A stretch of 63,879 nucleotides of DNA, the filler included, from Reclinomonas americana ATCC 50394 (Eukaryota), in assembly GCA_048213135.1 (NCBI GenBank). It is 14 parts of 14 records of this genome, joined end to end, with 100 filler letters (N's around TTAATTAATTAA, not from the genome) between each part and the next. Parts side by side here need not be neighbours in the genome. Positions count along the whole stretch, not along the records: positions 1 to 9,960 come from AFZH01018760.1; 13 more parts are not named here. One strand, written 5' to 3'. Positions 1 to 52,582 of the stretch are shown here, piece after piece; position 1 is the first letter of the stretch, and each line of letters starts with the position of its first letter. Both the position numbers and the translations under genes were made by a program. Below the pieces are notes generated by a model that did no database searches, was not told where the DNA came from, and was given only the letters and a program-made list of their open reading frames with translations.

Positions 1-433
1 TCTCTGTGTGTACACACTCTCTGAGTGCAACTCCTCACCAAATGAACGCAAGCGCGGGAAATGTGACCGCGAAAAACACTAAGTCTTTTATTGATCAGGT
101 GCAGGCTGTCAAGCTGCCGGGTTTGGAACCCGGCCGCCGGGTTTCAGCAGGTCAAGGTTGTCCAGGACCCTTGTCGTTGACTTCCAACGGCGACAATGTG
201 AAGAAAGAAACAGAGAACGAGCACTACTTCAGAGTCACCAGCAAACTCCACACTCATCTCTCGTCTAAGCAAAGCACGACGTCGCTGCATTGCGGGACAG
301 ACATACTGTCCGTCAACATTGATTGCGTCAGAAGAGGGCAGTGTGTGGTGCTTCTGAGCAAGTGAGTGTGTGAGTGAGGGAGAGCTGGTGTGAGTTGCTG
401 TTGCCTCCTCTGCAATCAACACGATCAAGAGAA

Positions 434-2041
434 ATGAGGTTTGTGTTGAAACTGCTCCGTCCCACTCTCTCTGTTTACTAACTCTCACACAGTGGCCACC
501 GACAACCAGCCTTCGAACTCGCGACAAACGGCAGTGTAAAAGCACTGCGCCGACTGGTGGCGCGTGAGGGCGCACACACTCTCCTGCGGAAAGAGGAGAT
601 GACTGACAATAGCAGCTCGGCCTTCCATCGTGCCGCCGCCTACAGACAACCGCGTGTGCTGGAGTATCTGTGGGAGGAGAGTGGAGTCGGACCAGAACTC
701 GCCCAATTGGTCAACGACCACGGCTTGACGCCACTGATGGCGGCTGCTGACAAGGGCCACTACGATGTGGTCGAGTGGTTGCTGGAGGACGAGGAGAGAT
801 GCCCAGCAGAGTCGGTGATGGCGGTGACCAATGACCGTGATCCCGATCCGCAGTCCACTGCGCTGCATTTGGCTGCCTCGCACGGCTACGACGACATTGC
901 GCGGCTTCTTGCCACTGAGTTTCCCGAGCTCATTCCGCTCTGCAACAAGTCGGGCCGCACGGCGGCTCAGTGGGCACGCGACATTGGGAATCACGACTTG
1001 GCCAACAATCTCGATTGTTTGGCTGCAGAGACGCTGCGTGCGCTGCAGGAGCAGCAGCAAACTCCTCCGCCTGCAGGTAACTTTTTGCGGTCTCGTGCAT
1101 TATTGACTGCTGATTCGCGCTCACGATCATTGCCGCAGCACCGGTGCGACCGCTGCCTCTTGTTTTGTCGCATCTGCGTATTAACTCACGTTGCGTTGCT
1201 GTGCAGGTCGACGACTACGCCATGGCTCGTCAGGTCGCGCAACTGCAGCGCGATCTCGCCGCCGCGCAAGAGGAGCGAGAGCAAAAACAGCAGGAGTGGG
1301 ACCGACAGCGACGGGAGCTCGAAGACGTCGTCACGCAGACGCAGAGAACGAGCGCGGAGCTGCAGCAAGGCAACAGCCAGCTGCTGCGAGGCATCGCGGA
1401 CGGACAGCAGCTGATTGCGCATCTGCAGCGAGCGCATGCCAGCGAGCAGCAGACGAATGTGCAGTTGCGGAGCGCCAACTTGGAGTTGCAGCGGGCGCAT
1501 GCCGGCGCGCAACAAAAGGATGCCGAACTGCGACAAGCACGACAGCAAGTCGACCAGTGGCAGCGAACGTTTGCCGAATGCCAGCGGCGAGTGGATCACT
1601 TGGAGCGTGCCAGCGCGGAACAGCAGCAGGCCCACGCGCAGCTGCAGGCGGAGCGAGATCGAATCGCCTCGGAACTGACTGTGGCGTTGCGTGAGAAGGA
1701 CGTGCTCGCCGCTCAGCTGCGAGACAAGGAGCAGATTGTTGCGCAGCTGCGACAGGAGCTCCTTCTCAGCCAAGGTCTGGCTGATGCCCTCTGTCTTTTC
1801 TTTATGCTCATTCATGTCTCACCTGTTCTTTTGCATTCCACAGTCCACACTACCGTGCAGCGCTTCGAGTGGGCGGAGATTGTGCACGCCACCAACTCCT
1901 TCTCGCCGCGCCTCAAGGTCGGCGAGGGTGGTCAGGGTGCCGTTTTCATCACTCTGCTTCGCCAAATGCACGTGGCCATCAAGGTGCTCGATCCCGAGGC
2001 ACCGTGGACGATGGAGTCGTTTGAGAGTGAGGTCTGTATTA

Positions 2042-2087
<46 letters not shown>

Positions 2088-3961
2088 CTCCACGTTGTTA
2101 TTTTCCATGTCCCAGGTCGCCGCCCTCGGTCGTCTGCGCGATCGTCGCATTGTGCCTCTTGTCGGGTACTCGGTTGGCGACGACAAGGCACGCTGTTTGG
2201 TGTACAAGGCTCTGCAGTGCGTTGTTAGGGCCGTCTCTCTCTCTCTCTTTGTCGCTCCACCGTTGTCTCATTGTGAGAACCCACAGAGTTCCCAACCTGG
2301 AGAATATGCTTCTGCTGCCACGCGCCGGTCGTGCGCCGCTCACGGTCGTGCAGCGTGTGCAGATTGGTCTCGGACTGGCCGAGGCTGTGGCGTTCTTGCA
2401 CGAGGTTTGTGCGGTGTGGAGGGCTCGCATTCTCCTTCTGAGTTTCTGTTTCTCTCTTTCCTCTCCCCACCCCATTGAATGGGCGCTGTGTGTGTATATC
2501 GCGTTTAGGATGTGGATGATTTCGCACTTATCGTCGCAAACGCTTCTTGCCTTCGCACACTGCTTCTCCTCCTTGACAGTGAGTTTTGCGAGGTTTCTCT
2601 CCTCTTGCTGCTCACTCGCTGAGCATTCTCGTGAGCTCTTCACTTTTCCTTTCACTCCCTCGATGCAATCCTTGCTTCCTCTCCCGATCTCGTATGTGTC
2701 TGCCCTGTTTCACGTACGTATACGTAGTGTTATTACATCGGTTGTAGCGCGCTTTTTTCTTTCGCACTCACGTTCTCTTTCTCAAGAGAGAGAGAGCTTC
2801 TCTTTTCTAAAAAGTCCTCGGAGATCATTTCTGCGCTACTTGATAACTCGTTACTCTCATCTTCACTCTCCTCGCCTTCCTTTCTCCCCGCTGTTTGTCT
2901 CTTTTCTCTTTCATTCCCCGCCAGTATTGTCTCACTCCATTCTTCTCACTCTCCTCGCCTTCCTTACTCTCGTGTACGCGCTGTTTGCTCTCCTTTTCTT
3001 TCACTTTCCGCCAGTGTTGTCTCGCTTCATTCCTCTCACTCTCCTCGCCTTCCTTACTCCCCGCTGTTTGCTCTCTTTTCTCTTTCGTTCCCCGCTAGTA
3101 CTGACTCACTCCCTTCCTCTCACTCTCCTCGCCCTCCTTACTCCCCGCTGTTTGCTCTCTTTTCTCTTTCATTCTCCGCCAGTATTGTCTCGCTCCAGTC
3201 TTCTCACTCTCTTCGCCTTCCTTTCTCCCCGTCTACGCTGTTTGCTCTCTTTTCTCTTTCATTCCCCGCCAGTGTTGTTTCACCCCCTTCTTCTCATCTC
3301 CTCGCCTTCCTTGCTCCCCGTTTACGTACTTCTGTGCCACTCACGATTCTCTCTGCATTGCCACCCAAACTCTATTTTCTCTTTCTCTCTCTCTTCCTTC
3401 CCCTTCCCTCACTCTCCTCCCTCCTCGCAGAACAATGTCATCCACCGCGACATCAAGCCCTCGAACGTGCTTCTCGATCACCGCCTGGAGCCGTGCCTCG
3501 GTGACTTTGGCATGGCGCGGTCGATTGTAGGCGGCACGGTGTGCTTAAAGCCATTTGCCTCTTTCTCTCTCTTGGCCTCTTGATCGCCTCTTCTTATTGC
3601 CTCTCGCCTCTCGCAGACGACGATCGCCGCCGGCACGCTGGACTACATGGACCCGCTGGCATTGCGTGCGCGCCGTCCACTGCCCAAGCACGACGTCTAC
3701 AGCATGGGAATGGTGCTGGTGCAGCTCGTCACTGGCAAACCGGTGGCCTCGGTGGGCGAGTGGTCCGAGGAGTGGCACGAGTCGCCAGAGTCGCTGCGTG
3801 TAATGGAGCTGGTGGATGTCGGGGAGGGCGTGGAGTGGACGCCGCGCGTTGCGGAGCCGATGTTTGCGCTCGGCATGCGGTGCATGAGTTTGCAGGCGAA
3901 TCGACCGACGGCGCAGGAGGTGCTCGAGGTGATGCGCGGTGTGCGGGAGGTGTGTGGGTAG
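434..3961 (+). CDS. Ankyrin-repeat / coiled-coil / RLK-Pelle(IRAK)-type Ser/Thr kinase, paralogue 1 (multi-exon)
   Basis: ATGAG|gt at 434-438, acceptor at 492. ANK motifs TPLMAAADKGH and TALHLAASHG. Gln/Glu-rich heptad region 1207-1773. Kinase motifs FEWAEIVHATNSFS-KVGEGGQGAV, VAIK, FESEV, HRDIKPSNVLLD, GDFG, GTLDYMDP, DVYSMG, RPTAQEV. Stop TAG at 3959-3961. GT-AG introns join the exons in frame, including a 5-nt micro-exon at 1139-1143. Confidence 0.9.
2886..3320. repeat. Intronic minisatellite, about 5 degenerate copies of a ~83-90 bp pyrimidine-rich unit
   Basis: Recurring unit cgctgtttgctctcttttctctttcattccccgccagtattgtctc...ctcactctcctcgccttcctt inside the long kinase intron of paralogue 1. 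The matching intron of paralogue 2 is short and lacks it. Confidence 0.85.
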
Positions 3962-4418
3962 ATTGTAAAGAAAGGAGTGATGTATTAGTCGCGATGGAGA
4001 AGTCGAGGTAGCAGGAGCTGCGGCTCGGCAAAGACAATGTGCATTCGATGGTGGATCGTGGCGTTGTCTGCATGTCGCCAGAACCAGTGACGAGAGCGGG
4101 AGCCAGGTGAATTTCACCATGCCTTCGATCTCAAACGTCGACTTTGTGCCCGACGTGTGATGGAGGGTGTGATAGAGAAGGAACTCGACTCCAGAGTCTC
4201 CTGCAAACTCACGTCTCAACAATGCATAACTTCGACGTTGCTTCGTCATCTGATCGACAACAATGAAGGACACGGAATAATCCGACATCGATCTGACAAC
4301 GAGCTCTCAAAACCGTCTTCAAAGAGAACGCTGTTGTATTCGTGTGTGTGTGTGAGAGAGAGAGAGTGCGAGTGCGGTCTGAAGTGTATCTGTTTCCGCA
4401 AGTGTTGGAGTTAACAAG

Positions 4419-5639
4419 ATGAGGTCTGCGCTGTGTGCACTGCGCTTTGTCGAAATGCGTTCTCTCACTCGCTCTCACTCTTTGCGCAGTGCTCGTTGGA
4501 AAAAAGCATGGGTGATAGGCCTGGATGGTGATGTGCAGGCACTGTATGAATTGGTTACGCGTGAGGGTGTAAGCATTCTGCTTACGAGAGAGGAGATGAC
4601 TGACCGTGGCAGCTCGGTGTTTCTCACTGCCGCTCTCAAAGGTCATATCTCGGTGTTGGAGTACTTGTGGGAGGAGAGTGGCGTGGGGCCACAACTCGCA
4701 CAAATGGTCAATGACTTTGATTGGACACCACTCGCGGCAGCTGCCTTCGGAGGGCAATTGCCAGTGGTGGAGTGGCTGCTGGCCGATGAGCGACGATGTC
4801 CGCCAGAGATGGTGCGGGCGGTCACCAATGATCGTGACGACTACCCACAGTTCACCGCTCTGCATTATGCTGCCGTAAATGACCGCGAAGCCATTGCGCG
4901 ACTTCTTGCCACTCGCTTTCCCGACCTCATCACCGTGGTCAATAAGGAGGGCATGACGGCGGGCCAGTGGGCACGCGAGTATGACAAGCAGCACGTGGCT
5001 GAGTTGCTCGATTGCATCGCTGCGCAGCCACCACCACGCCCACCACAACAACAGCGGTCTCCTCCACCTGCAGGTAACTCATTGTCGTGTTCGTTGGTTG
5101 ATTCGTGCTCTCATCTTCGTGCTGTTCTCTGTTTGTCTTGCCTGGGAAACTCGCAACTCCAGCCCGGCAGGTGAGATCCTCTGCTCATCTTTCTCGACCT
5201 TGGGTGTTGGTCTTCGTCTTCTCACTAGTTTCGTTGGCGATTGAGCAGGTTGACGACGATGCCGTGGTTCGTCAAAACGCACAACTCCAGCGCGATCTCT
5301 CAGCAGCACAGCAGGAGCGAGAGCATCAGCAGCGAGAGTGGGACCGTCAACGACAAGAACACGAGGACATCGTGGCACAACTGCAGGAAACCAACGCTGA
5401 ATTGGAGCGAGTACATGCAAGCGAGCAACTCCTTGTTGCACATCTTCGGCAAGCGCTTGCTGACAGTGAACAGCGAGTGGATCAATGGAAGCAAACCCAC
5501 GGCCAGCTACAGGCTGAGCGAGATCAAATGACTTATCAGCTGACTGTGGCTTTGCGTGACAAGGACGAACTCACCTTGCGGCTTGCAGAAAAGGATCAAC
5601 TTATCTCCCAGCTTCGACAGGGTCGACTTCTCGCACAAG

Positions 5640-5710
<71 letters not shown>

Positions 5711-7074
5711 TGGGTGTGGGTGTGGGTGCTCACTAGCGGTTGTACTCTACGTGTGTGTCTGTCCGACTTACCTTCACTCTCTCGCATCGTGAACAACGCA
5801 CCAGCCGACACCGCGATACAGTGCTTCGAGTGGCCGGAGATCGTGCAAGCCACCGACTCCTTCTCCCCACGCCTCAAGGTCGGCGAGGGCGGCCAAGGTG
5901 CCGTCTTCATCACTCTGCTTCGCGAGATGCACGTGGCCATCAAGGTGCTCGACCCCAATGCACCGTGGACGATGGAGTCGTTTGAGAGTGAGGTCTGTTG
6001 TACTGTCACTCTCTCTCTTATTTTCTCCTCATGCTTCTTCTCTCTTCTCGCAGGTCGCCACCCTCGGTCGTCTGCGCAATCGTCGCATTGTGCCTCTTGT
6101 CGGCTACTCGGTGGGCGACGACAGGGCACGCTGTCTCGTGTACAAGGCCCTGCAGTGCGTTCTTGTCTTTCTCTCTCCTTTCTTTCTCCATTGTCATCTC
6201 ACTGTTGTATCACACAGAGTTCCCAACCTGGAAGACATGTTGCTGCTGCCACGTGCCGGTCGTGCACCACTCACGGTCGTGCAGCGTGTGCAGATTGGTC
6301 TCGGACTGGCCGAGGCTGTGGCGTTTTTGCACAAAGTTTGTGTGATGTGAACAGTCTCATGATTGTTCTTTGCTTCTGCACAAGTTAGTTTTCTCTCCGT
6401 CGCATGCTGTTCTTGTCTCTCCCCGTCTCTCGTGTTACCCTCTCCCTAAATCCCTCTTGCACCTCTTACAATCCATGAGCGATTCCCAACACGACTCAGG
6501 GGCAGCGCTTCTTCACTGATTCTCTTTCTTTCACCGCCTTACCTCGCAGAACAACGTGGTGCACCGCGACATCAAGCCCTCGAATGTGCTTCTCGATCAC
6601 CGACTGGAGCCTTGTCTTGGTGACTTTGGTATTGCGCGGTCGATTGTTGGTGGCAAGGTGTGTTGGTATCAATGCGTCTCTCTCCCGATCACATCCTCTT
6701 ACCCTCTCGCCTCGCAGACAACTGTTGCTGCCGGCACGCCCGACTACATGGACCCACTGGCGATGCGTGCACGCCGTCCACTGCCCAAGCACGACGTGTA
6801 CAGCATGGGTGTGGTGCTGGTGCAGCTCGTGACTGGCAAACCGGTGGCCACGGTGGGCGAGTGGTCCGAGGAGTGGCACGAGTCGCCAGAGTCGCTGCAT
6901 GTGATGGAGCTGGCGGACTCCAGTGTGGAGTGGACGCCGCGCGTTGCGGAGCCGATGTTCGAACTCGGCATGCGATGCATGAGCATGCTGCCGAATCGAC
7001 CGACGGCGCAGGAGGTGCTCGACAGGATGCGGGTCATTCGCGAGGCGTGTGGGCAGTTTACGTTGGAGTTGTGA
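4419..7074 (+). CDS. Ankyrin-repeat / coiled-coil / RLK-Pelle-type kinase, paralogue 2 (multi-exon)
   Basis: Same exon layout as paralogue 1: ATGAG|gt at 4419, ANK exon to 5073, 8-nt micro-exon 5163-5170, coiled coil from 5249. Kinase HRDIKPSNVLLD, GDFG, GTPDYMDP. Stop at 7072-7074. Confidence 0.9.
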
Positions 7075-7727
7075 AGAAGGCATGATCTCCGTGGTTGTTC
7101 TGAGAAATCGACACTTCTCGCCGGCGGCAATAATCGTGTGCTGGCACATACATAATCTCGGTGTCTGCATTTCGCCGGTTCCATAGTCAACCTGTGCGGG
7201 AGAGTAGGAGCTGCATTTTGTGAGCGATGAATCTCAGCTTCAGAGTCCCTTCCACGACGGTCGTTGCAGACCACGACGTCGCGTTCAGCATGCCTCTCAT
7301 ATGGGTCCAAAACTGAGGGGCACTCGGAATAATAAGACTGAGTCTCCGAAGCAAGTTAGAGACTGCTCTGCTCGTGAGTCTTGCACCACAATGCATGCAG
7401 TGCACAGAAAACACGACGTCGACGTCAACGACGCCGTGTCTGTCTCGACAAGTATGCACGACACTGAAACCCACACCAGTGAGTGAGTCTCTGCTCAACA
7501 GTGAGTGAAACAGAACTAAGGACCTATCCCCGCTGTCAACAGTGCGGCATCAGCACGACGTCTGGTCGTCTCTGACAAGATTGCAGGACACAAAAGACAC
7601 GACAAAACTTGTCGGCGCAGAGAAGACAGCGTGGAGTGCGTGTGTGCGTGTGTGCGTGTGTGCGTGTGTGTGCGTGCGTGTGTGTGTGAGAGAGAGAGAG
7701 AGGCAGTGACAAGCGCCCACCCAAGAA

Positions 7728-9801
7728 ATGAGCTCGAGGTCTGTCTTTTCCCCGTTGTCAGAATACCTTCATCTCCCTTCCCCCTCATCCCTTCCCCCTC
7801 ATCCCTCATCCCTCCCTCCCTTCCCCCCTTTCCCTCTTCAGAAAAAAAGCCCACGAACTCGCCGCCGCCGGCAACCTCAAATCCCTCCGCAAGCTCGTCA
7901 CCCGCAAAGGCGCCCACACCCTCCTCCAACGCGACGAGATGAGCAGCGGAGGCGGCTCGGCCTTTGACTGGGCCGCCCAGCACGGCCACCTCCCCGTACT
8001 CGAGTACCTCTGGGAGGAGAGCGGCGTCGGCCCGCAACTCGCCCGCCTCGTCAACGACCTGGGATGGACGCCATTGATGGAGGCCGCCTACAATGACCAC
8101 CTGCCAGTGGTCGATTGGCTGCTGGCCGATGCGCGACGGTGTCCGCTGGAAATGGTGCTGGCCGTGACCAATGAGCGCTCGTTTGATCCGCAATCGACGG
8201 CGTTGCATGTGGCCGCTGTGAAGGGACATGAGGCGGTGGTGCGGCTGCTGGCCACGAGGTTCCCCGAGTTGATGTCGATGATGGATGCCAAGGGGAAGAC
8301 GGCGGCGCAGAGGGCGCGCACGAATAGTAAAGTGCACGTGGCCGAGTTGCTGGAGCGGCTGGCTCAGCCACCACCGCCACGTGACCAGGAAGGTGAAGGT
8401 GCGGTGTTGTTGTCTGATGCTATTCTTGTTTTCCGCTGCTCACTTTTTTCCCTTGGATTTGCAGGGGCGACACGGCAGGTGAGAGTCCTTCTCCTCCTTG
8501 CTCTTCACGTTCGCAGACTCTCCTTCGTGTCTTGTTCTTTGCCTGCTCTTTTCGGAGATTTTTATCGTGTCTCTTCGTTTTCTCCTCCCTCCCTCCTCCT
8601 TCTCCTCCATCTCCTCCTTCTCCTCCTTCTCCTCCTCCTCCTCCTCCTCCTCCTCCTCCTTCTCCTCCTCCTCCTCCTTCCCCCTCTCACTTCCCTTCGC
8701 AGCCCCCACCTGACGACTCGCATCTCGCACTCATCGCCGACCTCCAACGCGACCTGGCCGCCGCGCAGCAAGAGCGCGCCCAACAGCAGCTGGAGTGGGA
8801 CCGACAGCGACGAGAGCACGAGGACACCATGGCGCAGCTGCAACAGGCCATGGCCGACCTGCAGCACGGCAACGCGGCGGGGCAGCAGCAAGTCGCGCAC
8901 CTGCAGCGTGCGCTGGCCTACGAGCAGCAGAAGAACGCCCAGTTGCAGCGCACCAACTCGGAGCTGCAGCAGGCGCACGCCGGCGAGCTGCAGAGGGATG
9001 CCCAGCTGCATCTAGCGCAGCAGCAAGTCGCTCAACTGCAGCGTACGGTCGCCGAAAGCCAGCAGCGAGCGGATCAATGGCAGCGAGCCAGCGCGGAGAA
9101 GCAGGCTGAACGAGATCGAATCGCCGCGCAGCTGACAGTGGCGTTGCGCGACAAGGACGAGCTCGCCGCGCAGAATCGGGAGAAGGAACATGTTGTCGCG
9201 CAGCTGCGACAGGAACTCCTCCTCGCGCGAGGTCTGCCTCTCGCTGTTCATCTTTTGCATCGCCTTATTCTCACTTCGCTGCAGTTCACATCTCGGTGCA
9301 GCGCTTCGAGTGGGCGGATATTGAGCAGGCCACCAACTCATTCGCGGATGACCTGAAGGTCGGTGAGGGCGGTCAAGGCGCCGTTTACATCTGCGATCTC
9401 CAGGAAGCCCATGTGGCCATCAAGGTGCTTGATCCCGAGGCCCCGTGGACGATGGAGTCGTTTGAGAGTGAGGTCTGCCTCGTCCTTTTCTGCTTCTTCT
9501 CTCTTTCTGCTCATCTGTCTCGCAGGTTGCCACTCTCGGGCGCCTGCGTGACCGTCGAATTGTTCCTCTCGTTGGCTACTCGGTGGGCGACGACAGGGCA
9601 CGGTGTCTCGTTTACAAGGCCCTGCAGTGCGTTGTTCATCGCTCTCTCAGTCTCCATCATTGCCTCACTTAAAAAGCACGCAGAGTTCCCAACCTGGAAG
9701 ATCTATTGCTGCTTCCAGGCGTCGGTCGTGTGCCACTCTCTGTCGTGCAGCGTGTGCAGATTGGTCTCGGATTGGCGGAGGCTGTGGCGTTCTTGCACAA
9801 G
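7728..9801 (+). CDS. Ankyrin-repeat / coiled-coil / RLK-Pelle-type kinase, paralogue 3 (3' part lost in the gap)
   Basis: ATGAGCTCGAG|gt at 7728, ANK exon from 7842, 14-nt micro-exon 8465-8478, coiled coil from 8703. Kinase N-lobe FEWADIEQATNSFADDLKVGEGGQGAVY and VAIK through AVAFLHK. The HRD/DFG exons are not present before the gap at 9961. Confidence 0.85.
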
Positions 9802-9830
9802 GTTCGCACCACCATCTAGTCAGGGACCTT

Positions 9831-9870
<40 letters not shown>

Positions 9871-9874
<4 letters not shown>

Positions 9875-9960
9875 CGTACGTACGTACGTACGTACGTACG
9901 TACGTACGTACGTAACGTACGTACGTACGTACGTACGTACGTACCGTTACGTACCTACGT
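9871..9960. repeat. (TACG)n run at the contig end, possibly a sequencing artefact
   Basis: About 20 TACG units directly after a (CT)n tract and directly before a gap. Confidence 0.7.
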
Positions 9961-10060
9961 NNNNNNNNNNNNNNNNNNNNNNNNNNNNNNNNNNNNNNNN
10001 NNNNTTAATTAATTAANNNNNNNNNNNNNNNNNNNNNNNNNNNNNNNNNNNNNNNNNNNN
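9961..10060. other. Artificial scaffold gap with six-frame-stop linker (1 of 13)
   Basis: Identical 44N-TTAATTAATTAA-44N spacers at 9961, 12913, 20388, 22393, 25139, 31587, 32920, 35837, 38904, 48213, 55246, 59379 and 62111. Confidence 0.98.
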
Positions 10061-10107: not shown

Positions 10108-10582
10108 GTTGTATTCTCCACGGCATACACTGCGATTTTCATCATATCACCAAAGGTGAGTTCTTTTGTTGCCCGTCGACTGCTTGTCGTTGATGAACTC
10201 ATCACGTGCTATCTCATCAGACGGCCGATCGAGTCGTCGGCTACCTGGAGGAGGAGGCCATTCACAGCTACACCGAGTTTCTGAAGGACATTGAGGAGGG
10301 CATCATTGAGAATGTTCCGGCGCCCGAGATTGCCATTGTTGCGTCGCGTCGCGTCGTGCAGTTGGCCCCCCCTCCCCAACTCACACGTGTTTTTTGATGC
10401 AGGCCTACTGGCGCTTGCCAGCGAATGCCACGCTGAAGGACGTGGTGATTGCCGTGCGCAGCGACGAGGCCGGTCACCGTGACGTGAATCACTTGCGGGC
10501 CAATTATCTGGAGGCCGGCAAGGTCGACGAGGCTGCGCCGCTCGGCCCGCACCCCCAAGTGCCGCCGGAGAAGATTTTGTAG
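10108..10582 (+). CDS. AOX: Alternative oxidase, last three exons (5' part missing)
   Basis: Exons 10108-10155, 10221-10337 and 10403-10582 give ...[30 protein letters not shown]...[36 protein letters not shown], which contains the AOX di-iron motifs LEEEA and DExxHRDVNH. Confidence 0.93.
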
Positions 10583-10998
10583 GCCGTTGCAGCAGCTGAT
10601 GGTCATGCTCTCTCGTTTGCCCTCCTAATTCACTGTCGTTGCAAAAGTGGAGAGTGAATCCTGAATAGACTATTAAGGTGACAAGAGTCTCTCTTTCTTT
10701 GGAAGAAGGCCAATGTCTTCCCCTTCTCCTCCGCCTTCCCGCTTAGCCCTTCTCCACTTGTCCTTCTCCGTTCCTCTTCTCCCATCTGCCCCTTCCTCCT
10801 TCTCTATCCCCCTTTCCCTTCCCTATTCTTTCCCCTTACCCTTCCTATTCTCCTTCCCCTTCCCCTTCTTCCTTCTCCCATTCTCCCCCTGCTCCCCCTT
10901 CCCCTTCTCCTTCCCCGCTTCTCCGCCTTCCCCTTCCCCCACTTGTCCCATGTCCGTGTTCAGAAATTTTTTTCGAACGCACTTTCCACAAGCGAAAG

Positions 10999-12195
10999 AT
11001 GCCACTCCTCCTCCCCCTTCGCCATCGTCGCCGCCGTGGCCCCCTCGCCGGCGGCGGCTGCTGCTCTTCCCACTCCTCACCACCCACTCTCCCACGGCCT
11101 CCTCCCGCTTCTCCATCGCAGCCACCACCACCAACAAGGTCAGGAGAAGCATACGAGTGGCACGCCATGAACGCCTCCTCCGACCCACGCTCTCCCTTCC
11201 CCACCAGCTTCACCTCCGTGGCCGTCACAAGCGACGCGCAGCACATTATCTGCGGCAGCGTGGACGGCTCTGTGCATGTGTGGTCGACATCAACTGGTCA
11301 ACTGGTGCGACGCTGTGTGGGCCACACGGGCGAGGTCAACGCAGTGGCCGTGGTGCGTGGCGAGGAGAGCGAGGAGGGTGCCAGCGCAGGCGAACAGCGA
11401 TTCGTCAGCGCCTCCAGCGACAAGACGTTGCGCGTGTGGTCGCTCGCCACCGGACAAACAGTGCGCACTCTCGCCGGCCACGACGGCGCTGTGACGTGCC
11501 TGGCCGCCTCACGCGATGGGCGACTCGTGGCCAGTGGGTGCAGTCGGCCGGAATTCGGAGTGCGCTTGTGGGGCGCCACAGGAGGTGCGCCACGACCGCC
11601 GGCGCTCTACCTGCTCACGGCGCACACCAACACCGTGACCGCTGTTGACATTTCGCGCGACAGTCGCCTGGTCGTGAGCGGGGGCGCCGACTGCATCGTC
11701 AATCTGTGGTCCGTGGCCACGGGCGATATCGTGTGCTCGATTGGTGACATGGATCGAGCGTGCGCCGTGCGCGCTGTGGCGTTTTCGGGAAGCGGACATT
11801 TCGCGTTTGTCGGCACCACTGCTCCCGCGGTGGAGGTGTGCTCGGTGCCAGGTGAGCAGGAGGAGCAGCAGCAGCAAAAGGACGCGTCCGACGGGGACGA
11901 CGACGAGCTGGCCGCCGTGCACCAGCTGCCGGGCCATAGCCATGGAGGAACGCTGTGCATGGCGGTGAGGGAGGACGGCCGCATGCTGGCCACAGGTGGC
12001 GCCGACGGTCGCTGCGCGGTGGTGTCGCTCGCCACGGGCGAGGTGGTGAGCAGTGTGGACCACAACGAGTGGGTGATGGGGGTGGCGTTCACGCCAGAAG
12101 GCCGTCACGTGGTCACCTGCAGTCGCGACTGCACAATTCGAGTGGCGCGAGTGGACAGCGGGCTGGTGGAGAGGGTATTAGAGTCGGCGGGGTAG
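10999..12195 (+). CDS. WD40-repeat beta-propeller protein with diverged repeats (start codon uncertain, 10999 or ~11167)
   Basis: About 7 WD repeats (GHTGEVNAVAVV, SASSDKTLRVWS, GHDGAVTCLAAS, AHTNTVTAVDIS, TCSRDCTIRVAR) in one long exon. Confidence 0.85.
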   Translation: MPLLLPLRHRRRRGPLAGGGCCSSHSSPPTLPRPPPASPSQPPPPTRSGEAYEWHAMNASSDPRSPFPTSFTSVAVTSDAQHIICGSVDGSVHVWSTSTGQLVRRCVGHTGEVNAVAVVRGEESEEGASAGEQRFVSASSDKTLRVWSLATGQTVRTLAGHDGAVTCLAASRDGRLVASGCSRPEFGVRLWGATGGAPRPPALYLLTAHTNTVTAVDISRDSRLVVSGGADCIVNLWSVATGDIVCSIGDMDRACAVRAVAFSGSGHFAFVGTTAPAVEVCSVPGEQEEQQQQKDASDGDDDELAAVHQLPGHSHGGTLCMAVREDGRMLATGGADGRCAVVSLATGEVVSSVDHNEWVMGVAFTPEGRHVVTCSRDCTIRVARVDSGLVERVLESAG

Positions 12196-27929: not shown

Positions 27930-29056
27930 ATGACAACCAAGGTGCGCTCACTTGTGTGAGGAATTCGTGTGTGTGACTGCTGTTCTCTTTGTGCGCGTCT
28001 CACTATGTGACACAGGTCTTGCGGGGTCAAACAGACGCTGTGAAGTGTGTCACCATCACTCCCGATGGCCAACACATCGTGAGCGGCGGCTCTGACGGAT
28101 CGGTGATAATGTGGTCACTCGTGAGTGGAGAACAAGTGCGACGGTTGGAGAGGCACGCTGGATGGGTGACCTCCGTCGCTGTCACTCCCGATGGCCAGCA
28201 CATTGTGAGCGGTGGCATGGATAAGACAGTTCGAGTGTGGTCTTTGGCAAGTGGCAAGGAGGTGCGACGACTCGAGGGACACACTGCATACGTGTGGTGT
28301 GTGGCCATGTCTCCCGATGGCCTGCACATTGTGAGTGGTGACTTGCACAAGACCATTCGCGTGTGGTCCCTCACGAGTGGGGAACAAGGGCGACCGTTGG
28401 AGGGCCACACTAGCGTGGTGTTCTCTGTCGCTTTCACGCCGAATGGCCAGTACATTGTCAGTGGCAGCTGGGACGGCACAATTCGAGTGTGGTCCGTTGC
28501 GAGTGGGGAGGAAGTATGGCTGCTGGAAGGGCACACTGAGAGAGTGTGGTCTGTTGCCATCTCTCCCGACGGTCAGCATGTTGTGAGCGGAGGTTCTGAC
28601 AAGACAATACGATTGTGGTCGCTGGCGAGTGGCCAAGAAGTGCGACAGCTGAACGGCCACACCGATGCAGTGCTGTCAGTTGCTGTCACTTCCGATAGTC
28701 AGTACATTGTCAGTGGCAGTCGGGACAACACGGTGCGGGTGTGGTCACTGGCGAGTGGGGAACAAGTGCGGCGGCTTGATGGGCACACTAGCTTGGTGGT
28801 CTCCGTCGCTGCTGCCCCCGATGGCCAGCACATCGTGAGTGGCAGTCAGGATAAAACGATCCGTGTGTGGTCCACGCCGCGTGGGCTGGCGCGGCAAGAG
28901 CTTGCGGCCGCGCAATCAGCTGTGCTGGCCATCAACGAGCTGCTTGCCGAAGAAGATGACTGTGACTGGATCCTGGTCGACGTTGTGCTGCGGTGCTTCG
29001 TGTTGGAGGATGCAGAGGTGATTGAACGCCGTGCGCCTGGATGGTGCTGGACGTAG
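27930..29056 (+). CDS. WD40 array copy 3 (type B, complete, 7 repeats)
   Basis: ATGACAACCAAG|gt...acag|GTCTTGCGG, seven 126-nt repeats, C-terminus STPRGLARQELAAAQSAVLAINELL..DWILVDVVLRCFVLEDAEVIERRAPGWCWT*. Confidence 0.92.
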
Positions 29057-30012: not shown

Positions 30013-31189
30013 ATGGCAACAAAGGTGTGAATGTGTGCGCACTTTTTGCGTGGTTGGCGTCGACGTCTGCGTGCATTCGTGTGCTTGTTCATGTGTGCAG
30101 TTGTTGTTGTGTGCTTATGTGTGCGGTTGTTGCTGTGTGTGCGCGTCTCACCGTGAGTGATCGACACAGATCATTCAGAGTCCCGCTGCAGTGAGGTCCG
30201 TCACCATCACTCCCGACGGCAAGCACATTGTTGGTGGGTGTGTGGACGGAATTATTCGTATGTGGTCTTTGGCGAATGGGGAAGAAGTGCGACGGCTGGT
30301 GGGACACACTAATGTGGTGTGGTCTGTCGCTCTCACTCCCGACGGGCGGCACGTTGTGAGTGGGTGTGGAGACTGTACCGTACGTGTGTGGTCGCTGGCT
30401 AGTGGGGAGGAGGTAAGACGGCAAGAGGGACACACTTGTGCGGTGGCATCTGTCGCCGTCACCCCCGACGGTAAGCACGTCATCAGCGGCAGCTACGATT
30501 ACACAGTGAGAGTGTGGCTGTTGGCAAGTGGAGAGGAGGTGCGGCGGCTGGAGGGACACACCGGATGGGTAAAGTCTGTCGCCGTCACCCCCGATGGACA
30601 GCACATTGTCAGTGGCGGTGGAGATAACACAATGCGGGTATGGTTGCTGGCGAGCGGGGAAGAAGTGCGACGGTTGGCGGGACACACTGGATGGGTGCAA
30701 TCTGTTGCTGTTACTCCAGACGGTCAGCACGTCGTGAGTGGCAGTAGGGACAACACGGTGAGGGTGTGGTCTCTGGCAAGTGGGGAGGAGGTGAGACGGT
30801 TGGCGGGACACACTGCATTTGTACAATCGATCGCCATCACTCCTGACTGTCAGTACGTCGTGAGTGGGAGTGGGGACAGTACCATTCGGGTGTGGTCTCT
30901 GGCGAGTGGAGAGGAAATGCGACGGTTGGAGGGACACACTGAATGGGTATCGTATGTGGCCGTCTCTCCCGATGGTCAGCACATTGTGAGTGCGGGTGGT
31001 CAAGATAAGACCGTGCGAGTGTGGTCCACGCCGCGTGGCCTTGCTCGCTTCGAACTCGACGCCGCGCGCTTGGCCATGCGAGCTGTGCAGGAGATGCAGG
31101 AGGAAGAAGTAGATTCACGATGCCTTCCCGAGCTGGTTCTGCGCTGTTTCATCGTCGAGGATGCCGAGGTCGTCCTTTTTCGGTGCTGA
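30013..31189 (+). CDS. WD40 array copy 4 (type A, complete, 7 repeats)
   Basis: ATGGCAACAAAG|gt, exon 2 IIQSPAAVRSVTITPDG..., seven repeats, CLPELVLRCFIVEDAEVVLFRC*. Confidence 0.92.
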
Positions 31190-33196: not shown

Positions 33197-34624
33197 GTTG
33201 GTGAGTCGGAGGGAGGGAGAGCGGTGGCTACTGGTGATTGTGAGTTGTTTTTCGTGTCTTGCGAGGGAGAGTGGGTGATCATGCGGGATGCAGGTGGGGG
33301 AAGAGAGGATGGCAGAGGAAGGCAGAGGTTGTTGTTTAGGAGGAGCTCTCCCGTCGGTTTTTCCTGTCACGTAAATGTGAGTGAGAGGTCGTGAAGCATG
33401 TCTCTCTCTGTGTGTGTGTGTGTGTGCTTGTTTCCTTCTCACCTCAGTTTGTGTGTGCCAGCGCGATGAATCACTTGGGTATCTCTTGCGTCTTTTTCGT
33501 CTTTTTTGATGTCTGTTGTGCGTGCATCTTTCGTCGCCCATGTGAGTGCCTCAGTGAGCGAGATACGATGATTGTTTTCTCGCGTCTTGATTCACCTTCT
33601 TGGTGCCACTTTTCTTCCTCTCATCGTGCGTGTGCACCGTAGACATTCTCCTTCCGCCCTGAAGAATGCATGTCAATCCGCTCTCGAGCCCTCCTTCTCT
33701 GTCCCTTGTAGAGTCTCTCTTTCTCCACCGTCTCCCTCCTTTGTGCGCTCATTTGCCTCCCCAGTCATCCACCCCATCCTTCCCACACACGTTCGATGCC
33801 GAGGATGCTGGCCTGCTCATGATGCACCGATTGCCATGCTACCATCGTGTTGGGCCGTCCATCATGGTGAGCATCCCGACACCGAAGGATGTATACTGCC
33901 TGCAGGCTGATACTGCTCTCTCTGTCTCCTTTGAAGGATGGTTGTGCGTGCAGAACCGTCCCTCGGCTTGCCTCCTGACCAACTATCAGATGCTGATCGG
34001 TGTGTTCGTCACGTGAGACAGAGCAGATGTCTCTCTTTCCTCCATTCCTATGCTCACAGTACACTGGCATGCAGACACCTTGGAAGCCCGTGCTTGCCGT
34101 CGGCCGTGACGATGACAGACGTGCTGTGCATCTCCCGTTACCGGCTGTCACCTTACTCACACGGCTCTCCACTCGAATCCCACCGTGCACGATGCAGGTG
34201 TGTGGCCTTGTTCGTCGTGATCTCTCTTTCCTTCTTCCCTCCCACTCACCGCATACATGCAGACCGTGCATGTCATGAGGTGCGTGGCGTGGTTGGTGTA
34301 CACATGCGTTCCGTGATGTGCGATGGTGGCCTGGTCGGTGGATCGGTATCAATACCGGCTGGCAAGTCGGAGCGGATCCATGATGCGCGTTTTCTGGCTG
34401 TTGCTGTTTCTGCCGAGTGACGATGGTGGTGGCCATGGAAGGCTGGCACGTGCGAGGCCAGCAAGACATGGTGCGTGCGTGTTGGGAGCAAGTTGGTGAG
34501 ACTGGGAGATTGACTGGCTCAGTGCTGTGTGTGTGATCGGAACACAGGCGTGCTGGCAAGTGACTCGCCACTGGCATGCATGCAACATGACGTCGATGGC
34601 GCGTGACTCCATGCCTCACAGTAC

Positions 34625-44195: not shown

Positions 44196-52582
<8,387 letters not shown>

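What the first reader, a model, noticed from the sequence alone, without database searches (positions are those of the whole stretch)
434..9801. ANK-coiled coil-Pelle/IRAK-type kinase architecture in a non-animal, non-plant-looking genome
Seen: the kinase carries RLK/Pelle-style signatures (F-x-W-x-E-I-x-x-A-T-N-x-F-S leader, KVGEGGxGxV, LTVVQRVQIGLGLAEAVAFLH, HRDIKPSNVLLD, GTxDYMDP) with an intact RD catalytic set. No signal peptide or TM segment is visible. Known: RLK/Pelle kinases are mainly animal (death-domain IRAK/Pelle) and plant, and patchy elsewhere. Inference: a soluble receptor kinase in which ankyrins sense, the coiled coil oligomerises and the kinase signals. I do not recognise this as a described family.
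Basis: partly seen in the sequence, partly recalled or inferred. Interest (0 to 1): 0.78.

Follow-up and report, generated by a model that had tools for sequence, protein, structure and literature searches.

The report
Three tandem ankyrin–coiled-coil–RLK/Pelle-like kinase genes
A 10-kb contig of an unidentified eukaryote carries three neighbouring copies of a gene for a soluble protein kinase of the plant-receptor/animal-IRAK type that has an ankyrin-repeat domain and a long coiled coil instead of a membrane receptor part: an unusual domain combination, but a variation on known kinds of signalling kinases.

Summary
The sequence features are real, but 434-9801 holds three tandem + strand paralogues, not one gene. 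g1 (434-3961) encodes 694 aa, or 670 with the other junction. g2 (4419-7074) encodes 623 or 615 aa. g3 starts at 7728 and has at least 503 aa, because the contig ends at 9960. The window is 14 contigs joined by N spacers, so nothing beyond 9960 is linked.

Each gene has the same 7 introns and the same parts:
- five ankyrin repeats (Pfam; AF2 pLDDT 92)
- a 130-189 aa heptad coiled coil, modelled as one continuous helix
- an intact RD Ser/Thr kinase.

No signal peptide or TM segment was found, and there is no room for a large upstream exon.

Three independent kinase pieces hit RLK/IRAK structures first in the PDB. The leader matches the published RLK/Pelle hallmark, a helix plus TxxF. The closest proteins in 1.84 billion representatives are streptophyte RLKs, at only 100-118 bits. 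None of 193 stored relatives has the ankyrin module. A tree with plant RLKs, oomycete TKLs and bacterial kinases is unresolved.

The proposed mechanism is inferred, not shown: an ANK partner site, coiled-coil dimerisation and trans-autophosphorylation. The lineage of the organism is unresolved.

Verdict: a new variant of a known kind, of moderate interest.

The parts
434..438 (+). g1 coding start: 5-base first exon ATGAG followed by donor GTTTGT
   Evidence: ATGAG|GT(T/C)TG is shared by g1 and g2. Joined to acceptor 493 it gives an open frame.
493..1076 (+). g1 ankyrin exon with five repeats. The end is 1076 with a GT donor, or 1072 with a GC donor.
   Evidence: Pfam Ank_2 E 1.6e-18. AF2 pLDDT 92.3 with five helix pairs. 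Foldseek matches DARPins and tankyrase ARC at E about 1e-7. The junction is ambiguous.
1207..1774 (+). g1 coiled-coil exon of 189 aa. The exon may start at 1139 if the GT donor at 1076 is used.
   Evidence: AF2 gives one helix over residues 3-188 at pLDDT 94.4. The 3.5-residue hydrophobic periodicity has power 1.38 against a shuffle mean of 0.16, reached by 0 of 1000 shuffles.
1844..2031 (+). g1 kinase exon K1: RLK/Pelle-type leader, Gly loop, VAIK
   Evidence: PDB phmmer gave 12 hits, all RLK/IRAK.
2116..2216 (+). g1 kinase exon K2 (strands beta4-5, hinge)
   Evidence: the splice sites are homologous in all three copies.
2287..2404 (+). g1 kinase exon K3 (helices alphaD-alphaE, VQRVQIG...AFLH)
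2405..3430 (+). g1 long intron (1026 nt) holding an 84-bp minisatellite at 2863-3320
   Evidence: The homologous intron of g2 is 214 nt.
3431..3538 (+). g1 kinase exon K4 (HRDIKPSN, DFG)
3617..3961 (+). g1 kinase exon K5 (end of activation loop to subdomain XI), with the stop codon at 3959-3961
   Evidence: Pfam Pkinase E 9.4e-09. In the PDB, lectin RLK, IRAK4, LRR-RLK, SymRK and BIK1 rank first.
4419..4423 (+). g2 coding start, ATGAG first exon
4490..5073 (+). g2 ankyrin exon (alternative end 5069)
   Evidence: Pfam Ank_2 E 3.7e-14. It is 56% identical to g1.
5249..5639 (+). g2 coiled-coil exon of 130 aa (alternative start 5229)
   Evidence: Periodicity power is 0.86, reached by 7 of 1000 shuffles.
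5805..6335 (+). g2 kinase exons K1 5805-5992, K2 6054-6154, K3 6218-6335
6550..7074 (+). g2 kinase exons K4 6550-6657 and K5 6718-7074 (stop at 7072-7074)
   Evidence: Pfam Pkinase E 6e-21. In the PDB, BRI1 and IRAK4 rank first. Gene model.
7728..7738 (+). g3 coding start, an 11-base first exon with donor GTCTGT
7842..8403 (+). g3 ankyrin exon
   Evidence: Pfam Ank_2 E 5.8e-17. Alignment.
8703..9231 (+). g3 coiled-coil exon of 176 aa
   Evidence: Periodicity power is 0.88, reached by 3 of 1000 shuffles.
9285..9801 (+). g3 kinase exons K1 9285-9472, K2 9526-9626, K3 9684-9801. The rest of the gene is lost at the contig end (9960).

Best explanation
Contig 1-9960 of a eukaryote of unresolved lineage carries a head-to-tail array of three paralogous genes. 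Each has the same seven introns. Each encodes a soluble protein with three parts: an N-terminal domain of five ankyrin repeats, a proline-containing linker followed by a 130-189 residue heptad coiled coil, and a complete RD-type Ser/Thr kinase of the RLK/Pelle (IRAK) type. This anatomy is shown.

The mechanism is inferred. The coiled coil holds two or more chains in parallel. The kinase domains can then trans-autophosphorylate the Thr-rich activation loop, as proximity does for IRAK4/Pelle through death domains and for plant receptor kinases through ligand-induced dimers. The ankyrin groove binds a protein partner that recruits, localises or gates the kinase.

The paralogues keep the kinase (82-88% identical) but differ strongly in ANK (56-57%) and coiled coil (57-66%). 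This fits copies that pair with themselves and bind different partners.
For: Gene structure:
- Homologous splice sites in all copies give open frames of 694/670, 623/615 and at least 503 aa with no internal stop.
- Kinase exons are 75-92% identical in DNA, while the introns between them are 45-69%.
- dN/dS is 0.17-0.34 for ANK, 0.20-0.30 for the coiled coil and 0.21-0.22 for the kinase (computed).

Domains:
- Pfam finds ankyrin and Pkinase.
- The AF2 model of the ANK exon has pLDDT 92.3 and five helix pairs, and matches DARPins and tankyrase ARC.
- The coiled-coil exon is modelled as one 186-residue helix at pLDDT 94.4.
- It has a sharp 3.5-residue hydrophobic periodicity in all three copies, reached by 0, 7 and 3 of 1000 shuffles. 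E+K+R is only 20-23%, so it does not look like a single stable helix.
- The catalytic motifs are intact.
- No TM-like stretch was found.

Kinase type:
- N-lobe piece: 12 of 12 PDB hits are RLK/IRAK.
- HRD-to-end piece: 44 of the 60 rows shown are RLK/IRAK, with BRI1 and IRAK4 first.
- Last exon: lectin RLK, IRAK4, LRR-RLK, SymRK and BIK1 come before any other family.
- 18 of the 20 best single-domain relatives looked up carry names, and all 18 are streptophyte.
- The nearest Atlas clusters are streptophyte RLK fragments, score 0.97.
Against: - There is no expression evidence, and the gene models rest on paralogue comparison only.
- The ANK-to-coiled-coil junction is ambiguous. In g1 a GT donor at 1076 needs acceptor 1139 and adds 24 unconserved residues. 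The conserved join needs a GC donor.
- Oligomerisation was not tested.
- The kinase clade sits on a long stem (1.55). Its place relative to plant RLKs and two oomycete TKLs is unresolved: 68% support, and AU p 0.51 and 0.55 for the alternatives.
- No RAF, MLK, RIPK or animal IRAK sequences could be put in the tree.
- Similarity to any known kinase is modest: 100-118 bits per domain, and only 2 of 103,288 hits are below 1e-30, both multi-kinase plant predictions.
- dN/dS of the ANK exon is below 1, so there is no sign of positive diversifying selection.
- dS is 0.33-0.56 in the kinase half and 1.0-2.1 in the ANK half. This may reflect gene conversion rather than different constraint.
Confidence: 0.55

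Rival explanations
1. The anatomy is the same, but the N-terminal parts serve as an anchor and not as a sensor. The ankyrin repeats and coiled coil tether a constitutively dimeric kinase to a fixed structure such as cytoskeleton, membrane skeleton or flagellar apparatus. Other coiled-coil kinases and ankyrin adaptors work this way. The paralogues would then serve different locations.
For: ANK and coiled-coil domains are under purifying selection (dN/dS 0.17-0.34), as expected for fixed partners. The coiled coil is very long, 130-189 residues as one helix, more than dimerisation alone needs. No ligand-binding or receptor domain was found.
Against: No localisation motif or cytoskeleton-binding domain was found. 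The only Pfam hits on the coiled coil are below the curated cut-offs (Cep57_CLD_2 E 0.006, TPR_MLP1_2 E 0.0075). The sequence cannot separate this reading from the sensor reading.
Confidence: 0.25
2. The kinase is not a true RLK/Pelle member. It belongs to a lineage-specific TKL clade, like the oomycete-specific TKL groups, and resembles RLKs through shared ancestry of TKLs or through convergence in the leader.
For: The tree cannot separate 'sister of plant RLKs' from 'sister of Thraustotheca TKLs'. The stem is long and scores are modest. Oomycete LRR kinases are a published case of a plant-like architecture joined to an unrelated kinase clade (PMC10463195, passages).
Against: All three copies carry the RLK/Pelle leader hallmark. 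The two oomycete proteins that tie in the tree carry none. The strict pattern occurs in 34 of 150 representative hits, 0 of 42 hits and 0 of 120 control peptidases. Three separate kinase pieces rank RLK/IRAK structures first.
Confidence: 0.15
3. The array is not functional. It would be decaying duplicates, an assembly artefact of one gene, or foreign DNA (plant or bacterial contamination).
For: The assembly is very fragmented: 14 contigs of 1.2-10 kb. Another contig carries an M36 peptidase whose best relatives are myxobacterial at 42-64% identity. No RNA evidence is available.
Against: Two complete copies have 7 introns each and no stop or frameshift, with intact catalytic residues. The copies differ by 12-44% in protein, so they are not assembly duplicates. 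dN/dS is well below 1. Spliceosomal introns exclude bacteria. The donor style GT(C/T/G)TG(T/C) or GTGCGT and the acceptor GCAG also occur in the AOX gene on another contig. No plant protein is closer than about 118 bits.
Confidence: 0.05

Closest known systems
Plant receptor-like cytoplasmic kinases (RLCKs, e.g. BIK1/PBL) of the RLK/Pelle family
   Same: Both are soluble. Both have the RLK/Pelle leader (helix plus TxxF) directly before the Gly loop and an RD kinase core. BIK1, PBL9-like and other RLK/RLCK proteins are among the best matches.
   Different: RLCKs have short N-terminal extensions, often lipid-modified (my own knowledge). Here there are five ankyrin repeats and a coiled coil of up to 189 residues, and no MG start. 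Similarity is only 100-118 bits. The position in the tree is outside the sampled plant group.
Plant U-box kinases (kinase followed by a U-box; I recall them as RLCK-IX with an upstream coiled coil)
   Same: RLK/Pelle kinases with the same leader pattern (P0058). P0058 (kinase plus U-box) is among the nearest rows by path in the tree. That these plant proteins have a coiled coil before the kinase is recalled, not tested here.
   Different: There is no U-box here. The frame stops right after the kinase at 3959-3961 and 7072-7074, and Pfam gives no PF04564. The N-terminal domain is ankyrin and not a USP-type domain.
Animal IRAK/Pelle kinases
   Same: IRAK4 and IRAK1 are among the top PDB matches for all three kinase pieces. 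The N-terminal extension with TxxF is shared (PMC10916322, passages). They are soluble kinases activated by oligomerisation of an N-terminal interaction domain (established knowledge of Myddosome signalling).
   Different: The oligomerising module is a death domain in animals. Here it would be a coiled coil with ankyrin repeats, and Pfam found no death domain.
Ankyrin-repeat TKL kinases (ILK, TNNI3K/HH498, RIPK4/ANKK1; oomycete PITG_06288)
   Same: Ankyrin repeats joined to a TKL-group kinase. PITG_06288 has 15 N-terminal repeats (PMC3019232, passages).
   Different: Their kinase domains belong to other TKL families. None appears among the 60 best rows shown for the C-lobe queries. PITG_06288 is placed in an oomycete-specific subfamily, not in IRAK. 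None of these is described there with an intervening long coiled coil.

Membership tests
RLK/Pelle (IRAK) family of TKL kinases | N-terminal extension directly before the core kinase: an amphipathic helix plus an ST motif TxxF, consensus FSYEELEKAT[D/N]NF[S/D]. PMC10916322 calls it a hallmark of the superfamily and reports it absent from Raf and Roco kinases. | tested here: met
   All three copies have F-E-W-x-[ED]-I-x-x-A-T-[ND]-S-F-[SA] 4-5 residues before the Gly loop. The strict pattern is in 34 of 150 representative hits, 0 of 42 hits, 0 of 120 control peptidases and 0 of 2 oomycete TKLs. The definition is from passages read. The structure of the motif was not modelled.
RLK/Pelle (IRAK) family of TKL kinases | The kinase domain is most similar to RLK/IRAK kinases and less similar to other kinase families. 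| tested here: met
   In the PDB, the N-lobe gives 12 of 12 hits as RLK/IRAK. The HRD-to-end piece gives 44 of 60 shown rows, with the first 31 all BRI1, IRAK4 or lectin RLK. For the last exon, RLK/IRAK rows precede Aurora A. The named best relatives are streptophyte RLK/RLCK proteins. Atlas agrees.
RLK/Pelle (IRAK) family of TKL kinases | Monophyly with RLK/Pelle/IRAK in a kinase-domain phylogeny that includes the other TKL families. | tested here: inconclusive
   The tree has 74 rows: g1, g2, 53 mostly plant rows, 2 oomycete rows and 17 bacterial-type rows. g1+g2 lie in a 99% group with the plant and oomycete rows, apart from the bacterial kinases. Inside that group the order is open, with 68% support and AU p 0.51 and 0.55. 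No RAF, MLK, RIPK, LRRK or animal IRAK sequence could be obtained.
Receptor kinase (RLK proper) | Signal peptide, extracellular domain and a single TM helix before the kinase. | tested here: not met
   The maximum 19-residue hydropathy is 1.28. The proteins start MSGHRQ, MSARWK and MSSRKK directly before the ankyrin repeats. Only 457 and 653 bases lie between one gene's stop codon and the next gene's ATG.
Animal IRAK/Pelle | N-terminal death domain. | tested here: not met
   Pfam on all exon frames gives only ankyrin families before the kinase.
Ankyrin repeat domain | Tandem 33-residue helix-turn-helix repeats. | tested here: met
   Pfam Ank_2, Ank, Ank_3, Ank_4 and Ank_5 score above their cut-offs in all three copies. 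The AF2 model has five helix pairs. Foldseek finds DARPins and tankyrase ARC with TM 0.65-0.75.
Coiled coil | A long helix with a heptad (3.5-residue) hydrophobic repeat, and an oligomeric state. | tested here: inconclusive
   The helix and the heptad periodicity are met. The oligomeric state is not tested.
Ankyrin TKL kinases of other families (ILK, TNNI3K/HH498, RIPK4) | The kinase domain groups with ILK, TNNI3K or RIPK. | tested here: not met
   None of these is among the 60 best rows shown for either C-lobe query, nor among the 12 N-lobe hits. Only 60 of 286 and 60 of 100 rows were visible, and no tree with these families was made.

The most novel reading that the evidence does not exclude
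The array is a small family of cytosolic sensor kinases in a poorly sampled eukaryotic lineage. It would have independently rebuilt the IRAK/Pelle logic, in which an N-terminal interaction module drives proximity-induced activation of an RLK/Pelle kinase, using ankyrin repeats and a coiled coil in place of a death domain. The tandem copies would be diversifying in partner specificity, like an innate-immunity or self/non-self recognition family outside plants and animals.
Probability: 0.15. Interest if true: 0.65.

Novelty: new variant of a known kind. Interest (0 to 1): 0.4.

Why it matters
RLK/Pelle kinases underlie plant receptor signalling and animal Toll/IL-1 signalling. Outside these groups their distribution is reported as patchy: chlorophytes, a glaucophyte, oomycetes and apicomplexans (passages of PMC10868138, PMC3019232 and PMC10916322).

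A soluble member whose N-terminal part is an ankyrin domain plus a long coiled coil would add an architecture not seen among the relatives I could retrieve. It would also give a simple system for asking how proximity alone activates this kinase type.

The unequal divergence within the tandem array, with a conserved kinase and divergent ANK and coiled coil, is a small natural experiment in domain-wise evolution.

The finding does not change the known picture. TKL kinases readily recruit repeat domains in protists.

Tried and rejected
**Searches and jobs that gave nothing**
- Own genome: not held.
- Earlier findings: nothing by place, sequence or words.
- Sequencing runs: none was listed, and no RNA holder was listed.
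- Complex prediction on two copies of the coiled-coil alignment A1: the job never ran, so there is no verdict. The calls returned 'queue full' or 'not sent on' (42, 50, 52, 58, 60, 65, 69, 74, 77, 83, 85, 89, 91, 93, 94, 97, 99, 101, 103, 106, 108, 109, 111, 113, 115, 116) and finally 'no usable answer' (117).
- The search for homologous proteins with the last exon of g1, option 'longer': 329 candidates, none scored.
- The same tool with the g2 C-lobe, 'longer': 43 hits at E <= 1e-8. These were plant multi-kinase proteins and bacterial kinases, and none lists an ankyrin Pfam family.
- Metagenome scans with the ANK alignment A2 and the K1 alignment A3: 136 and 155 pattern matches, none confirmed.
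- Prokaryote genome scan with A3: 134 pattern matches. Only 3 were confirmed, as weak Gly-loop matches of 20-39 residues.
- One PDB query was sent in the wrong frame by my slip and found nothing. It was corrected.

**Placing the organism**
- Pfam on 186 ORF frames of the other 13 contigs gave only WD40, AOX, M36+PA, a PKS ketosynthase, CoA-transferase and a weak VWA hit.
- Atlas on the M36 ORF gave mixed bacterial and fungal clusters below 0.9.
- The homology search with the M36 ORF gave hits whose named sources are all bacterial, mainly myxobacterial, at 41-64% identity.
- The lineage stays unresolved.

**Readings considered and rejected**
- Dinoflagellate-type non-GT donors as the rule. Under the GT models all introns are GT-AG. 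Only the ANK-to-coiled-coil junction is ambiguous.
- A single alpha-helix domain in place of a coiled coil. E+K+R is only 20-23%, and the periodicity peaks at 3.5 residues and not at 3.6.
- Recent gene conversion as the sole cause of kinase conservation. Kinase-region introns are only 45-69% identical while the exons are 75-92%. Partial conversion is still not excluded, because dS is lower in the kinase half.
- Genes on the minus strand. 0 of 10 long minus-strand frames have a Pfam match, nor does the + frame 3-365.
- Further paralogues elsewhere in the window: none at E <= 1e-3.

**Literature**
Searches (one search found no paper) turned up no description of an ankyrin, coiled-coil and RLK/Pelle kinase. 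These searches are narrow and do not show that none is in print. Two papers I wanted (PMC3415837, PMC2675737) are not held.

Full report
**1. What the window is**

The 63,879-base window is not one stretch of a chromosome. It contains 13 spacers of 44 N, TTAATTAATTAA and 44 N, which divide it into 14 contigs of 1,233 to 9,960 bases. The finding lies wholly in the first contig (1-9960). That contig ends in a (CGTA)n microsatellite. Nothing beyond 9960 can be treated as a neighbour. The AOX, WD40, M36 peptidase, PKS and CoA-transferase fragments on the other contigs belong to the same record, but they are not shown to be linked. GC content is 0.51-0.60 throughout.

**2. The observation**

Pfam finds ankyrin repeats on three frames (Ank_2 E 1.6e-18, 3.7e-14 and 5.8e-17). 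It finds Pkinase on the frames that hold the HRD and C-lobe exons (E 8.8e-08, 9.4e-09 and 6e-21). Of the 10 frames scanned, 3 had no match. One, the g1 coiled-coil frame, had only sub-threshold coiled-coil families.

The motifs occur two or three times because the interval holds three genes. tblastn of the frames of each third of the contig against the others shows three collinear sets of conserved blocks.

**3. Gene models**

I enumerated GT-AG (and GC-AG) pairs that keep the frame open between conserved blocks, and kept those that fall at homologous positions in all copies. The models are:

| Gene | Exons | Protein |
|---|---|---|
| g1 | 434-438, 493-1076, 1139-1774, 1844-2031, 2116-2216, 2287-2404, 3431-3538, 3617-3961 | 694 aa |
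| g2 | 4419-4423, 4490-5073, 5229-5639, 5805-5992, 6054-6154, 6218-6335, 6550-6657, 6718-7074 | 623 aa |
| g3 | 7728-7738, 7842-8403, 8703-9231, 9285-9472, 9526-9626, 9684-9801 | at least 503 aa, cut by the contig end |

- None of the models has an internal stop.
- The first coding exon is tiny. In g1 and g2 it is ATGAG followed by GT(T/C)TG.
- One junction is uncertain. The strong GT donor after the ANK exon (CAG|GTAACT in g1 and g2) is in phase 1, and in g1 it can only pair with acceptor 1139. That adds 24 unconserved residues.
- The join that keeps only conserved sequence (1072>1207 and 5069>5249) needs a GC donor. It gives 670 and 615 aa.
- For the K4 donor I chose 3538 and 6657 over 3526 and 6645 because they fit the local donor pattern. 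The choice changes four activation-loop residues.
- No RNA data could be found to settle these points. This section rests on paralogue comparison alone.
- Donors are GTCTGT, GTTTGT, GTGCGT and GTGTG(C/T). Acceptors are mostly (C/T)GCAG or CACAG. Introns are 53-299 nt. The exception is a 1026-nt intron in g1 that holds an 84-bp minisatellite.

**4. Are the genes alive?**

- The copies are old and distinct. Protein identity is 56-57% in ANK, 57-66% in the coiled coil and 82-88% in the kinase.
- Kinase exons are 75-92% identical in DNA, while the short introns between them are 45-69%.
- From the dN and dS, dN/dS is 0.17-0.34 for ANK, 0.20-0.30 for the coiled coil and 0.21-0.22 for the kinase. All three parts are therefore under purifying selection.
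- dS itself is much lower in the kinase half (0.33-0.56) than in the ANK exon (1.0-2.1). This points to some concerted evolution of the 3' half, or to stronger codon constraint. I did not resolve which.
- The long minus-strand frames and the + frame 3-365 have no Pfam match (0 of 11).

**5. The three domains**

*Ankyrin domain.* AF2 on the alignment of the three ANK exons gives pLDDT 92.3 with five helix pairs. Foldseek returns DARPins and tankyrase ARC domains (E about 1e-7, TM 0.65-0.75).

*Coiled coil.* The exon is free of proline except at its start in g3, and it is rich in Q, A, L, R and E. AF2 models it as one uninterrupted helix over residues 3-188 at pLDDT 94.4. Hydrophobic residues recur with a sharp 3.5-residue period and not a 3.6-residue one. 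The power is 1.38, 0.86 and 0.88, against shuffle means of 0.15-0.18, and 0, 7 and 3 of 1000 shuffles reach it. E+K+R is only 20-23%. This is the signature of a heptad coiled coil, not of a charged single helix. The oligomeric state was not tested.

*Kinase.* g1 and g2 have the Gly loop, VAIK, HRDIKPSN, DFG, a Thr-rich activation loop ending in DYMDP, DVYSMG and NRPT.

*Soluble protein.* The modelled proteins have no TM-like stretch (maximum hydropathy 1.28). They start two to a few residues before the first ankyrin repeat. The stop-to-ATG gaps of 457 and 653 bases leave no room for a large upstream domain.

**6. What kind of kinase**

I therefore used three unaltered pieces.

- The N-lobe piece (1846-2238, with an in-frame intron) hits 12 PDB sequences at E <= 0.01. 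All are RLK/IRAK: BRI1 x4, LYK3, a LysM receptor kinase, IRAK1, CERK1 x3, BIK1 and a lectin RLK.
- The HRD-to-end piece of g2 (6520-7071) hits 286 sequences at E <= 1e-5. Of the 60 shown, 44 are RLK/IRAK. BRI1 is first at 1.2e-12 and IRAK4 follows at 1.5e-11. The other 16 are PknB (9), NEK2 (3), MKK7 (2), CaMKII (1) and PKG (1).
- The last exon of g1 hits 100 sequences at E <= 0.01. The first 34 rows are a lectin RLK, IRAK4, an LRR-RLK, SymRK, BIK1 and three generically named plant-type kinase chains. Aurora A comes after them.
- No RIPK, MLK, RAF, ILK or TNNI3K chain is among the rows shown.

The leader before the Gly loop reads FEWAEIVHATNSFS in g1, FEWPEIVQATDSFS in g2 and FEWADIEQATNSFA in g3. 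It fits the consensus FSYEELEKAT[D/N]NF[S/D], a helix plus a TxxF cap. [quoted passage not shown]

As a control, I counted a strict regex for this leader plus the Gly loop:

| Set | Matches |
|---|---|
| Representative hits | 34 of 150 |
| Proteins kept (mostly bacterial) | 0 of 42 |
| M36 peptidases | 0 of 120 |
| The two oomycete TKLs | 0 of 2 |
| The window's genes | 3 of 3 |

**7. Relatives**

- An exhaustive HMMER search of 1.84 billion representatives with the g2 C-lobe found 103,288 proteins at E <= 0.001, but only 2 below 1e-30. Both are multi-kinase predictions. The one I read (P0001) is a plant-type string of repeated kinase fragments.
- I scored the stored hits locally against the spliced kinase domains. 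The best single-domain scores are 116.3 bits for g1 and 117.7 bits for g2.
- I looked up 20 of the best. Of these, 18 carry names and all 18 are streptophyte: 16 seed plants and 2 Closterium. They include THESEUS1-like, L-type lectin RLK, CRK10, PBL9-like and a U-box E3 kinase.
- Ten further proteins, chosen for their place in the tree, include two Thraustotheca (oomycete) proteins, a Tritrichomonas protein, a Closterium protein, four seed-plant proteins and two bacterial or unnamed ones.
- The collection includes EukProt entries. The lack of any close relative therefore suggests a lineage with no predicted proteome in these sources.
- No ankyrin family is listed among the top 30 or the 43 hits.
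- An HMM of the three ANK exons matches 0 of the 193 proteins stored at that point. That HMM is built from three sequences and may miss distant ankyrin repeats.
- Scans of JGI metagenome contigs with family-specific peptide patterns found no relative.
- The prokaryote genome scan found only three short Gly-loop matches.
- No further copy lies on the other 13 contigs.

**8. Tree**

- From the stored proteins I took the 82 whose best domain match covered at least 226 residues of the g2 kinase. I dropped 11 near-identical cluster members. g3 was left out because it is partial. I added g1 and g2.
- The resulting 74-row tree was built with IQ-TREE quick search and the LG+G4 model.
- g1+g2 sit on a stem of length 1.55 inside a 99% group with 53 rows (those named are plant) and the two oomycete proteins. 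This group is apart from the bacterial-type kinases.
- Within the group the order is open. 'Window + plants' has 68% support. The alternatives 'window + oomycete' and 'plants + oomycete' are not rejected (AU p 0.51 and 0.55).
- The program warns of long branches and of odd composition in g1.
- The tree lacks RAF, MLK, RIPK, LRRK and animal IRAK sequences, so it cannot test membership properly. On this point the phylogeny is inconclusive. The hallmark leader and the PDB ranks carry the assignment.

**9. Mechanism**

*Shown:* the domain order, the intact catalytic set, the heptad helix, the ankyrin fold, the absence of receptor parts, tandem duplication and purifying selection.

*Inferred:* the coiled coil makes parallel dimers or higher oligomers. 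That would bring RD kinase domains together for activation-loop trans-phosphorylation. The ankyrin groove binds a partner. I put about 0.55 on this reading.

The main rival keeps the anatomy but sees ANK and the coiled coil as an anchor rather than a sensor (0.25). A lineage-specific TKL with a convergent leader gets 0.15. A dead or artefactual locus gets 0.05.

**10. Comparison with what is known**

- RLK/Pelle kinases are described as monophyletic in plants and animals. They are reported as patchy in chlorophytes and present in a glaucophyte (7 in Cyanophora), and were not found in rhodophytes or reported in fungi (PMC10868138, passages).
- Five IRAK-like kinases are reported in Phytophthora infestans. 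Four of the five have a TM domain, and all five are predicted to be inactive. The same kinome has a TKL with 15 N-terminal ankyrin repeats in an oomycete-specific subfamily (PMC3019232, passages).
- Domain shuffling between sensor domains and kinase clades in protists is a stated theme of PMC10463195 (passages).
- A recent survey of chlorophyte RLKs mentions ankyrin only as an annotation term (PMC12757656, passages).
- Against this background the present genes are a soluble, RLCK-like RLK/Pelle-type kinase with an N-terminal architecture that I did not find described or in the databases I could query. I call it a new variant of a known kind.
- I could not run an InterPro architecture query. 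The literature searches were few. 'Not described' is therefore not established.

**11. Organism**

- Spliceosomal introns show a eukaryote.
- Beyond that I could not place it. No genome or runs are held. The marker content of the other contigs is poor.
- The one long conserved ORF (M36+PA peptidase) is closest to proteins whose named sources are all bacterial, mainly myxobacterial. The best hit is 8.1e-90, and the listed hits have 41-64% identity. This suggests transfer or a foreign contig.
- The AOX fragment on the second contig has an intron with the same donor and acceptor style as the kinase genes.
The nearest kinases being streptophyte leaves a green-lineage alga possible.

**12. Verdict**

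- Interest is moderate (0.4). The architecture is unusual and the lineage apparently unsampled. However, both of its ingredients, RLK/Pelle kinases outside plants and animals and ankyrin-TKL fusions, are known, and nothing here contradicts current understanding.

Noticed in passing
window 9961-10060 and 12 further sites: The window is 14 contigs (1.2-10 kb) joined by spacers of 44 N, TTAATTAATTAA and 44 N. Adjacency across these spacers is artificial.
   Followed up: yes
window 434-438, 4419-4423, 7728-7738: The first coding exon is tiny: ATGAG in g1 and g2, and 11 bases in g3. The start codon is therefore separated from the rest of the ORF by an intron of 54-103 nt. Ordinary ORF finders would miss the start.
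   Followed up: partly
window 434-9801 (introns) and 10338-10402: The 5' splice sites are unusual: GTCTGT, GTTTGT, GTGTG(C/T), GTGCGT and GTTGCG. The +3 base is not fixed and TG(T/C) is common at +4 to +6. Acceptors are mostly (C/T)GCAG. This might help to place the organism.
   Followed up: no
window 493-1076 against 1844-3961 and the g2 and g3 equivalents: Synonymous divergence is 1.0-2.1 in the ANK exon but 0.33-0.56 in the kinase exons of the same gene pairs. Introns in the kinase half are also more alike than those in the 5' half. This suggests partial gene conversion or a mosaic duplication history.
   Followed up: partly
window 2863-3320: An 84-bp minisatellite (5.3 copies, 81% matches) inflates the K3-K4 intron of g1 to 1026 nt, against 214 nt in g2. 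Other introns hold (TC)n, (TG)n and (CTC)n arrays.
   Followed up: no
window 45707-47964 (+): An M36 (fungalysin-type) metallopeptidase with a PA domain lies in two long frames. Its best relatives whose sources are named are bacterial, mainly Myxococcota (Minicystis, Polyangiaceae, Nannocystis, Kofleriaceae), at 41-64% identity. This is either horizontal transfer into the eukaryote or a foreign contig.
   Followed up: partly
window 10747-12192, 27977-29053, 30161-31186, 34607-35218, 42075-43117 (+): Five separate contigs carry long arrays of near-consensus WD40 repeats (Pfam WD40 E down to 3.3e-86). This hints at an expanded WD40-repeat gene family in this organism.
   Followed up: no
window 10197-10582 (+); 58391-59359 (+); 55485-58070 (-): These stretches hold fragments of an alternative oxidase gene (two exons and a roughly 65-nt intron), a type I PKS-like ketosynthase domain and a CoA-transferase (SCOT-like) gene.
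   Followed up: no
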